Origin: Comamonadaceae bacterium
Lineage (GTDB): Bacteria > Pseudomonadota > Gammaproteobacteria > Burkholderiales > Burkholderiaceae_C
Assembly (NCBI GenBank): GCA_947373245.1
Contig: CANBWY010000003.1
Location: 1,093 to 65,092, forward strand
Length of the DNA: 64,000 nucleotides
Reading direction: 5' to 3'
A program made the translations under genes and the position numbers. How positions within the stretch are numbered: the first letter of the stretch is position 1; each line of letters opens with the position of its first letter. The notes below the pieces were generated by a model. It was not told the origin of the DNA. It ran no database searches and worked only from the letters and a program-made list of their open reading frames with translations. This document shows positions 41,382 through 43,121 of this stretch, piece after piece.

Positions 41382-43121
41382 GTGAAAAGAAAACTTCTCA
41401 GCCTGCTCATCCTGGCTGCTACGGCACATGTATCCGCAGAAGTCAGTGATGCCATGATCGCCAAAGATGCGTCAGACACGGATTCAGTTCTGAGCTGGGG
41501 CTTGGGCACACAAGGTCAGCGCTTCTCGCCTTTGACCACCATCAACACCAAAAACGTGAACAGGCTCGCGCCGGCTTGGTCGATGTCTTTTGGCGGTGAA
41601 AAGCAACGCGGCCAAGAGTCTCAGCCCTTGGTCTACAAAGGCAAGATGTTCGTGACCGCTTCTTATTCGCGCATCTTCGCGATTGATGTGAAAACGGGCG
41701 AGAAGGTTTGGAAATATGAGCACCGCCTGCCAGAAGGCATCATGCCTTGCTGTGACGTGGTCAACCGTGGCGCTGCGCTGTACGGCAACCTCGTGATCTT
41801 TGGTACGTTGGATGCGCAGTTGGTGGCCTTGGACCAAGACACCGGCAAAGTGGTTTGGCGCGAAAAGATTGACGACTATTCTGCGGGCTACAGCTACACA
41901 GCGGCGCCTTTGATTGCGGACGGTCTGTTGTTGACTGGCGTGTCGGGGGGCGAGTTTGGTGTGGTGGGTCGCGTTGAGGCGCGCGACCCCAAGACCGGCA
42001 AATTGGTTTGGACACGTCCCACTGTTGAAGGCCACATGGGCTACAAAGACGGCAAAGAAAACGGCATCAGTGGCACCACCAACGCCACTTGGCCAGGCGA
42101 GACATGGAAGACGGGTGGTGCTTCCACTTGGTTGGGTGGCTCATATGACGCCACCACAGGTTTGGCTTACTTTGGTACGGGTAACCCCGGCCCATGGAAC
42201 AGCCACGTGCGCAAAGGCGACAACTTGTATTCATCGTCCACCGTGGCGATTGATGTCAAGACTGGCAAGATTGCATGGAGCTACCAAAACACGCCCAACG
42301 ATTCATGGGACTTTGACGGCGTCAACGAGTTCGTGACTTTTGACATGGACGGTAAGCGCGTGGGTGGCAAGGCGGACCGCAATGGCTTCTTCTATGTGAA
42401 CGATGCCAAGACTGGCAAGCTCATCAACGCCTTCCCCTTCGTGAAGAAAGTCACATGGGCTTCGAGCATTGACCTCAAGACGGGGCGCCCTGTGTTTGAC
42501 CCAGCCAACCGCCCAGGTGACCCAACCGCCAGCAGCGATGGCAAGAAGGGTTCATCGGTGTTTGCGGCGCCCGGCTTCTTGGGTGGCAAGAACCAAATGC
42601 CAATGGCCTACAGCCCCAAGTCGCAACTGTTCTATGTGCCCACCAACGAATGGGGCATGGACATTTGGAACGAGCCCATCAGCTACAAAAAAGGCGCTGC
42701 CTATTTAGGCGCAGGCTTCACGATGCGGCCTTTGTTTGATGATCACATTGGCTCCTTGCGCGCCATCGATCCCAAAACTGGCAAAGTGGCTTGGGAAGTG
42801 AAAAACAATGCGCCTTTGTGGGGTGGTGTTTTGACGACCGCAGGTGACTTGGTGTTCTGGGGCACGCCAGAGGGTTACCTCAAGGCCGCCGATGCCAAAA
42901 CAGGCAAAGTGTTGTGGCAGTTCCAAACTGGCTCTGGCGTGGTGGCGCCTCCCATCACATGGAGCGATGGCACAGACCAATACGTGAGCGTTGTGTCAGG
43001 TTGGGGCGGTGCGGTTCCGCTGTGGGGCGGCGAAGTGGCCAAGAAGGTCAACTTCCTCGAACAAGGCGGTTCTGTTTGGACGTTCAAACTGCCATCGTCG
43101 ACGAACGTCGCTGCCAAGTAA
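41382..43121 (+). CDS. pedH: PQQ-dependent alcohol dehydrogenase, lanthanide-type (PedH/ExaF clade)
   Basis: [12 protein letters not shown], vicinal-disulfide PCCDVVNRG, active-site WDFDGVNE (extra Asp), [13 protein letters not shown] start after AAGGAG. Confidence 0.9.

What the first reader, a model, noticed from the sequence alone, without database searches (positions are those of the whole stretch)
41382..43121. PQQ alcohol dehydrogenase has the extra Asp of lanthanide-dependent enzymes
Seen: the active-site stretch reads W-D-F-D-G-V-N-E (42306-42329). Known: Ca2+-dependent ExaA/PedE have Ser at the second position (WDFSG), whereas Ln-dependent PedH/ExaF/XoxF have Asp. The N- and C-terminal motifs place this protein in the ethanol-type (PedH/ExaF) clade, not XoxF. 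Inference: the organism uses rare-earth elements for heterotrophic alcohol oxidation, and with no Ca-type paralogue in the locus the dependence may be obligate.
Basis: partly seen in the sequence, partly recalled or inferred. Interest (0 to 1): 0.72.

Follow-up and report, generated by a model that had tools for sequence, protein, structure and literature searches.

The report
Lanthanide alcohol dehydrogenase with imported PQQ
The gene is an ordinary member of a known family of alcohol-oxidising enzymes and likely needs a rare-earth metal; in this freshwater bacterium and its close kin no genes were found for making the enzyme's organic cofactor (PQQ), while a predicted PQQ importer lies next door, so the cell likely borrows both cofactors from its surroundings.

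Summary
WDFDGVNE lies at 42306-42329, and Asp312 aligns with the lanthanide ligand of PedH, where ExaA has Ser. The protein is a PedH-type PQQ alcohol dehydrogenase: best solved match PedH (802 bits; ExaA 671, XoxF 377), Asp clade in a tree, all metal ligands intact. This is a known and common enzyme type, and the scan found it before on other DNA (e1-938226). Having no Ca-type paralogue is usual: only 5 of 50 PedH-bearing relatives carry PedE. The host is a Limnohabitans. pedH occurs in 7 of 139 genomes of the genus, none with PedE or pqqC, including a one-contig genome. All 7 have, within 5 kb, a receptor carrying the PqqU PQQ-binding signature, and a second, possibly lanthanide-importing receptor in the same block. 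Likely mechanism: sigma-54-controlled periplasmic alcohol oxidation using scavenged PQQ and lanthanide, with acetaldehyde routed to acetate and the glyoxylate shunt. Metal use, substrate and obligacy are untested. Each part is already in print; I did not find the combination described for Limnohabitans. New member of a known kind; modest interest.

The parts
41382..43121 (+). pedH-type PQQ alcohol dehydrogenase, 579 aa; the N-terminus reads like a signal peptide (by eye, no predictor run)
   Evidence: TIGR03075 755.7 bits, cut-off 480; PedH 6ZCV 802 bits; AlphaFold model pLDDT 88.7, best fold match 6ZCW, TM 0.95
42306..42329 (+). WDFDGVNE: catalytic Asp310 (42309-42311) and extra, predicted lanthanide-binding Asp312 (42315-42317)
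41748..41753 (+). vicinal Cys123-Cys124 (disulfide ring)
   Evidence: aligned to PedH and ExaA
41952..41954 (+). metal-ligand Glu191 (the ligand Asn268 is at 42183-42185)
41253..41268 (+). sigma-54 (-24/-12) consensus box TGGCATGCGTTTTGCA, 129 nt before pedH
   Evidence: Only strict match in the window, though 0.59 are expected by chance. Found at -122 to -126 in 4 of 4 other genus loci checked and before 9 of 77 other pedH genes, against 0 of 308 in-gene control windows. Consensus recalled.
35694..37937 (-). PqqU-type TonB-dependent receptor, predicted PQQ importer
   Evidence: Only PDB matches are E. coli PqqU 9C4O/6V81, 323 bits. F139, R340, R392 align to Y99, R304, R365. NF041535 431 bits, below its 1200 cut-off.
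30088..32619 (+). second TonB-dependent receptor, candidate lanthanide (LutH-like) importer
   Evidence: Family present in the block in 7 of 7 pedH genomes and in 25 of 139 genus genomes. A 29%-identical homolog lies beside a lanmodulin-like EF-hand gene in M. nodulans. No direct comparison with LutH was possible.
34734..35681 (-). YVTN/YncE-like beta-propeller directly downstream of pqqU
   Evidence: TIGR03866 220 bits, below cut-off 287; TIGR02276 over cut-off
34138..34755 (-). cytochrome b561
   Evidence: PF01292
32601..34186 (-). sensor kinase (33242-34186) and LuxR/NarL-type response regulator (32601-33245)
   Evidence: all named families below cut-off; conserved in the block
37967..40126 (+). 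NosR/NapH-like membrane Fe-S protein with an FMN-binding domain
   Evidence: NF046105 605 bits, below cut-off 1000; PF12801, PF04205. Close orthologue only in the 7 pedH genomes. No nosZ match in 5 of 5 genomes searched.
40123..41103 (+). ApbE flavin transferase
   Evidence: PF02424
43201..43551 (+). small monoheme cytochrome c
   Evidence: PF00034
43721..45241 (+). acetaldehyde dehydrogenase ExaC
   Evidence: NF050026 953.7 bits, cut-off 900
45312..45701 (+). DUF779 protein
   Evidence: PF05610
45706..47856 (-). sigma-54-dependent activator (the AcoR-type label is recalled)
   Evidence: many sigma-54 activator families, none over cut-off
47838..48431 (+). cytochrome c550 PedF
   Evidence: TIGR04494 197 bits, cut-off 122
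48322..49323 (+). periplasmic binding protein, PedG-like by position
   Evidence: PF00497; TIGR03871 weak, 30 bits

Best explanation
The gene encodes a PedH-type PQQ alcohol dehydrogenase that likely needs a light lanthanide and likely oxidises ethanol and similar alcohols in the periplasm, with PQQ likely imported through the neighbouring PqqU-type receptor because no PQQ-synthesis genes were found. Shown: family, ligand residues, gene block, no PedE or pqqB/C/E found. Inferred steps: (1) the sigma-54 activator switches on pedH from the conserved box; (2) the exported apo-enzyme takes up PQQ brought in by PqqU and Ln3+ probably brought in by the second receptor; (3) Ln-PQQ oxidises the alcohol, and electrons pass via the Cys-Cys ring to cytochrome c550 (PedF) or the small cytochrome c and on to the respiratory chain, with the flavinylated NosR-like protein as a possible extra route; (4) ExaC turns acetaldehyde into acetate, which AcsA and the glyoxylate shunt assimilate. 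With no PedE and no PedC-type ABC transporter there is probably no lanthanide switch.
For: PedH 802 vs ExaA 671 vs XoxF 377 bits; the Ser-type control protein P0002 gives the reverse, ExaA 1005 vs PedH 666. Quick tree: Asp group of 35 rows (SH-aLRT 95) sister to the Ser group of 5 rows (100). Fold: 6ZCW first, 62% identity. Published: PedH has Asp where PedE has Ser295 and is inactive under PedE conditions (PMC5487730, passages); ExaF D319S loses function (10.1101/2020.02.25.964783, passages). No pqqC in the 7 pedH genomes; no pqqB or pqqE in 4 of 4 of them tested, with G137 positive as control; G155 is one contig, 100% complete. PqqU triad met (criterion from PMC12124388). PqqU within 5 kb in 7 of 7. 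Outside the genus search, PqqU-like receptors occur in 11 of 11 pqqC-negative and 13 of 21 pqqC-positive pedH genomes tested (p 0.019, kin not independent). PedF and ExaC over cut-off. AcsA in 7 of 7 and isocitrate lyase in 5 of 5; a malate synthase G-like ORF at 10286-12505 (recognised by eye).
Against: No biochemical test. D-x-D is not infallible outside this clade: membrane glucose dehydrogenase carries it (PMC11996626), and a XoxF1-MxaI complex held only Ca (PMC6028718). G000 is only 84% complete. Lacking pqqC is the genus norm (112 of 139), so its absence from pedH genomes is not enriched (p 0.35). pqqU is in 67 of 139 genus genomes and sits at this same site without pedH in G132 and G140; G132 has no PF01011 match at all, so pqqU was not necessarily recruited for PedH. 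The receptor is below the NCBIfam PqqU cut-off and differs at R536 (K) and N477 (S). ExaC is missing from the G026 block. The second receptor's substrate rests on gene neighbourhood only; 2 of 7 plasmid homolog regions read had no PQQ or lanthanide gene nearby.
Confidence: 0.8

Rival explanations
1. The enzyme is lanthanide-dependent PedH, but PQQ is made in-house: pqq genes lie in the unassembled 16% of this genome or are too divergent to detect, and pqqU is an unrelated resident gene.
For: G000 is 84% complete in 112 contigs. 39 of 50 pedH-bearing relatives do have pqqC. pqqU occupies the rpe-gph site without pedH in G132 and G140.
Against: Three genomes scored 100% complete (G155, one contig; G138; G026) with the same block lack pqqB, pqqC and pqqE, while the same searches find them in G137. 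No PqqA- or PqqE-like motif in G000.
Confidence: 0.08
2. The enzyme is metal-promiscuous and works adequately with Ca2+, which is far more abundant in fresh water, so there is no real lanthanide requirement.
For: D-x-D enzymes with Ca-supported activity exist in other clades. No PedC-type ABC transporter over cut-off in 4 of 4 pedH genomes, while control G113 has it; that transporter is needed for PedH-dependent growth in P. putida (PMC12997753). No lanmodulin-type EF-hand motif in G000.
Against: Both characterised members of this clade, PedH and ExaF, need lanthanides. The ligand set is the same as in PedH. A candidate lanthanide receptor is kept in 7 of 7 blocks.
Confidence: 0.07
3. The physiological substrates are aromatic alcohols (tyrosol, 2-phenylethanol) that feed the adjacent homoprotocatechuate pathway, rather than ethanol.
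For: hppD, hpaR and an hpa-like cluster start about 7 kb downstream in this window. P. putida grows on 2-phenylethanol with PedH.
Against: hppD/hpaR in 0 of 80 pedH loci; hpa genes in none of 8 genus regions. The linked aldehyde dehydrogenase is ExaC (954 bits, over cut-off), not StyD (396, below).
Confidence: 0.05

Closest known systems
PedH of Pseudomonas putida KT2440 (PDB 6ZCV/6ZCW; PQQ-ADH type 2b)
   Same: 62% identity over the fold; same Cys-Cys, Glu, Asn and D-x-D; linked to cytochrome c550 PedF, a binding protein and an aldehyde dehydrogenase.
   Different: No PedE partner, no PedC-type ABC transporter, no pqq operon found. Predicted sigma-54 control. PqqU, a second TonB receptor and NosR-like/ApbE are in the block; KT2440 lacks a LutH homolog.
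ExaF of Methylorubrum extorquens AM1
   Same: Same type 2b family and the same essential Asp (D319; paper passages).
   Different: Sequence not available through the tools, so not compared; its host is a methylotroph with XoxF and MxaF.
ExaA/PedE (Ca2+-dependent; PDB 1FLG)
   Same: Sister clade, 55% identity, same fold.
   Different: Ser instead of Asp at position 312; separate clade with 100% support.
PqqU (YncD) PQQ scavenging of E. coli and other Gram-negatives (PMC12124388)
   Same: Triad F/Y99-R304-R365 plus K274, Q84, Q121, Q308, Q310, Y481 kept. Scavenging without synthesis is the published majority state: only 23% of PqqU carriers have pqq genes.
   Different: R536 to K and N477 to S; below the NCBIfam equivalog cut-off; the predicted client is a lanthanide alcohol dehydrogenase rather than glucose dehydrogenase.
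NapH/NosR-like flavinylation clusters with exaA (PMC8238504)
   Same: NapH-like Fe-S protein plus ApbE beside an ethanol oxidase, reported in 172 genomes and proposed as an electron route (passages).
   Different: Here cytochrome c550 is present as well. The putative flavinylation motif reads DGV(S/T/A)KAT, with Ala at the variable position in 12 of 18 close homologs; function untested.

Membership tests
PedH/ExaF (PQQ-ADH type 2b) | Eight-bladed PQQ methanol/ethanol dehydrogenase without a heme domain | tested here: met
   TIGR03075 over cut-off and no cytochrome c domain; model matches 6ZCW, TM 0.95
PedH/ExaF (PQQ-ADH type 2b) | Vicinal Cys-Cys; Glu, Asn and catalytic Asp ligands | tested here: met
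   C123-C124, E191, N268, D310
PedH/ExaF (PQQ-ADH type 2b) | Extra Asp two residues after the catalytic Asp (D-x-D) | tested here: met
   D312
PedH/ExaF (PQQ-ADH type 2b) | Groups with PedH, not with PedE or XoxF | tested here: met
   Score order against solved structures; quick tree separates the Asp and Ser groups. The characterised enzymes themselves were not in the tree, and the careful search did not finish.
PedH/ExaF (PQQ-ADH type 2b) | Activity with Ln3+ and not with Ca2+; preference for ethanol | not testable with these tools
   needs an enzyme assay
PedE/ExaA (Ca2+ type) | Ser at the D+2 position | tested here: not met
   Asp312 against Ser in 1FLG
XoxF methanol dehydrogenase | Closest to XoxF | tested here: not met
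   377 bits or less, 36-39% identity
P. putida rare-earth switch system | Paired PedE and PedH plus the PedA1A2BC transporter | tested here: not met
   no PedE; no PedC over cut-off in 4 of 4
PqqU (gene at 35694-37937) | Signature Y/F/W99, R304, R365 (PMC12124388) | tested here: met
   F139, R340, R392; kept in 30 of 30 genus loci fetched
PqqU (gene at 35694-37937) | NCBIfam NF041535 equivalog cut-off (1200 bits) | tested here: not met
   431 bits; still the best family by far. This lowers 'is the E. coli-type equivalog', not 'works like PqqU'.
PqqU (gene at 35694-37937) | Binds and imports PQQ | not testable with these tools
   needs binding or complementation tests
LutH/LanA lanthanide receptor (gene at 30088-32619) | Homology to LutH or LanA and linkage to lanthanide genes | tested here: inconclusive
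   No reference sequence or model available. Of 7 plasmid homolog regions read, 3 lie beside D-x-D PQQ dehydrogenases, 1 beside pqq genes, 1 beside a lanmodulin-like gene and 2 beside neither.

The most novel reading that the evidence does not exclude
A lineage of small-genome freshwater Limnohabitans runs alcohol respiration wholly on two borrowed cofactors, PQQ made by other cells (27 of 139 genomes of the same genus carry pqqC) and dissolved light lanthanides, each with its own outer-membrane importer in one insertable block, with no calcium back-up and no lanthanide switch. Its ethanol use in lakes would then be gated jointly by community PQQ supply and rare-earth availability, and the second receptor would be a betaproteobacterial lanthanide importer.
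Probability: 0.4. Interest if true: 0.55.

Novelty: new member of a known kind. Interest (0 to 1): 0.28.

Why it matters
The enzyme adds nothing new to lanthanide biochemistry. The value is as a clean test system: with no Ca-type isoenzyme and no PQQ synthesis, growth on ethanol should need both PQQ and a lanthanide. That would give a direct selection for the untested outer-membrane lanthanide importer and for the job of the NosR-like flavoprotein, and a bioassay for PQQ and rare-earth availability in fresh water.

Tried and rejected
Single-sequence AlphaFold gave pLDDT 41 and was discarded; the alignment-based model was used. The careful tree did not finish, so only the quick tree is cited. 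My first sigma-54 pattern had the wrong spacing and missed the box (corrected). Sigma-70 scan: 0 sites in 40900-43900. Expression: five freshwater metatranscriptome runs hold 5-26% of the sampled words. Four were laid; all are contigs only, with some near-identical pieces over the block, but DNA carry-over was not controlled and relatives' contigs pile on pedH and exaC, so neither expression nor habitat is claimed from them. No solved relative or named family for the second receptor. A test for enrichment of pqqC loss among pedH genomes of the genus was negative (p 0.35). A conserved link to the hpa pathway was rejected. A denitrification role for the NosR-like gene is unlikely, with no nosZ match in 5 of 5 genomes, though no positive genome was included. 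Literature searches for the combination: Limnohabitans + lanthanide gave 1 paper, unrelated by its abstract start; searches gave 0. No supplements were opened; data S2/S3 of PMC12124388 and supplementary file 1 of PMC8238504 may already list these genomes. No complex prediction was run.

Full report
Observation. The frame 41382-43121 (+) is intact, 579 aa, with a ribosome-binding site before the GTG. WDFDGVNE is at 42306-42329. Cys123-Cys124, Glu191, Asn268, Asp310 and the extra Asp312 are all present. Aligned solved structures read WDFDG (PedH), WDFSG (ExaA) and WDYDG (XoxF) there.

Family. TIGR03075 is passed (755.7 bits, cut-off 480). Against PDB sequences the order is PedH 802, ExaA 671, XoxF 377 bits. 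A Ser-type protein from locus L070 gives the reverse order, 1005 for ExaA and 666 for PedH, so it serves as a PedE stand-in. An AlphaFold model from a 37-row alignment (pLDDT 88.7) matches 6ZCW first (TM 0.95, 62% identity), then 1FLG (55%); fold scores alone do not separate the two. A quick tree of 51 rows puts the protein in a 35-row Asp group (SH-aLRT 95) beside a 5-row Ser group (100); the characterised enzymes were not in it and the careful search did not finish. 80 of 80 fetched relatives (65-94% identity) have D-x-D, with some bias from the fetch pattern. Published work shows PedH has Asp where PedE has Ser295 and needs lanthanides (PMC5487730, passages), and that ExaF D319S loses function (10.1101/2020.02.25.964783, passages). 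Caveats on the motif come from other clades (PMC11996626, part 1 of 9 and passages; PMC6028718, passages).

Host and paralogues. The genome has 2.29 Mb and is 84% complete. The window's rpe gene clusters at 90% identity with Limnohabitans proteins. Its only other PQQ dehydrogenase is a 36%-identical protein on contig C4, which also has D-x-D (WDLDS). No PedE was found in G000, G013 or G026. Across the genus, 7 of 139 genomes match at E 1e-150 or better, one match each, 84-100% identical; all 7 have D-x-D. A PedE would score near 1e-195, so none was found in those searched. In 50 of the 80 relatives' genomes (those I could submit, chosen for longer contigs), only 5 had PedE; one of the 30 left out, L094, has PedE in its locus. 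PedH without a calcium partner is therefore common, not special.

PQQ supply. pqqC was found in 39 of 50 relatives but not in G000, G013 or G026. In the genus 27 of 139 pass the pqqC cut-off, none of them among the 7 pedH genomes. pqqB and pqqE were missing in 4 of 4 pedH genomes tested and present in control G137. G155 is a single contig scored 100% complete; PedH is its only eight-bladed PQQ enzyme apart from a weak BamB-sized hit, and it has no GSDH-family match. The receptor at 35694-37937 matches only PqqU among solved structures. Counting along that alignment, Q84, Q121, K274, R304, Q308, Q310, R365 and Y481 are kept, Y99 is F, R536 is K and N477 is S. This meets the published signature Y/F/W99-R304-R365 (PMC12124388, parts 2-4 of 8) but not the NCBIfam cut-off. 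It lies within 5 kb of pedH in 7 of 7 genomes. Among 32 of the 50 relatives, PqqU-like receptors occur in 11 of 11 without pqqC and 13 of 21 with it (p 0.019). One of the 11 (L244) reads N at the R365 position, one (G081) is probably the same genome as G197, completeness was not given, and kin are not independent. Against a special link: pqqC absence is the genus norm (p 0.35), pqqU is in 67 of 139 genomes, and it sits at this site without pedH in G132 and G140; G132 has no PF01011 match. In G153 and G131 pqqU lies beside a GSDH-family gene instead. Scavenging by PqqU without synthesis is already described as the majority state.

The block. The region between rpe and gph varies in content: pqqU alone in G132, the ped block in the four pedH genomes compared, and ped plus hpa genes only here. 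G+C is 54% in the block against 58% in the flanks. PedF and ExaC pass their cut-offs; ExaC is absent from the G026 block. A sigma-54 box at 41253-41268 is conserved at the same distance in 4 of 4 other genus loci and in 9 of 77 further loci, against 0 of 308 control windows; a sigma-54 activator is in the block and an rpoN-like ORF at 22923-24590 (recognised by eye). A second receptor family is in the block in 7 of 7 and in 25 of 139 genus genomes, in two subtypes about 34% identical. Only 25 plasmid records match it. Of 7 read, 3 are beside D-x-D dehydrogenases, 1 beside pqq genes, 1 beside a gene with three lanmodulin-like EF-hands and 2 beside neither. That fits a LutH-like role (background: PMC12482762, passages) but does not show it. 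The NosR-like gene has close orthologues only in the 7 pedH genomes, and the family is in 35 of 139; no nosZ was found. An earlier scan note (e1-5274030) led me to PMC8238504, whose passages report this pairing with exaA in 172 genomes. No PedC-type transporter passed the cut-off; in P. putida it serves PedH-dependent growth (PMC12997753, abstract and part 1 of section 4).

Obligacy. AcsA (7 of 7) and isocitrate lyase (5 of 5) are present, so ethanol could be assimilated. G000's iron-type dehydrogenase is a 4-hydroxybutyrate dehydrogenase over cut-off, and its Zn-type one is closest to idonate dehydrogenase; G155 has an Ahr-like Zn enzyme, below cut-off. Short-chain dehydrogenases were not surveyed. 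So no obvious NAD-linked ethanol route was found, but obligacy is shown only for the PQQ route.

Verdict. Every component has a published precedent. The combination in Limnohabitans, a lanthanide-type enzyme with imported PQQ and no calcium back-up, was not found in four literature searches (PMC10409515 was also read in passages, and did not bear on it). No supplements were read, and they may list these genomes. Interest 0.28.

Noticed in passing
L001:5638-8486 (G000 contig C4): A second, distant PQQ dehydrogenase (36% identity, TIGR03075 just over cut-off) with WDLDS, also D-x-D, followed by a diheme cytochrome c and a pentapeptide-repeat protein; local G+C 49% against 56% for the contig. Homologs in G026 and G137 read WDLDA. 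Substrate unknown.
   Followed up: partly
window 37967-41103: NosR-like protein plus ApbE without nosZ. The putative flavinylation motif is DGVSKAT here and DGVAKAT in 12 of 18 close homologs; a 36-40% paralogue in pqqC-bearing members of the genus reads QAGT or QGGT there.
   Followed up: partly
window 50121-58871: hppD, hpaR and a homoprotocatechuate-like cluster inserted next to the ped block only in this genome among the 8 other genus regions compared.
   Followed up: partly
window 49339-50118 (-): 259-aa exported-looking protein with no Pfam or NCBIfam match; conserved at the block edge in G026, G155 and L032 (59-65% identity).
   Followed up: no
L188:4814-6716 (G155); L197:7716-9742 (G013): Three linked membrane-protein genes inside the ped block of two relatives and not in this window; two of them scanned had no NCBIfam match at 1e-10.
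   Followed up: no
L201:14772-16958 (G132): pqqU alone between rpe and gph in a genome scored 100% complete with no eight-bladed PQQ enzyme match; its client is unknown (GSDH not tested there).
   Followed up: no
L282 (G126 contig C3): A 1.6-Mb genome has a similar block, with pedH, both receptor types and pedF, and no pqqC match; its PqqU reads N at the R365 position.
   Followed up: partly
window 43721-45241: ExaC clusters at 90% identity with Undibacterium proteins while rpe clusters with Limnohabitans; either strong conservation or transfer.
   Followed up: no
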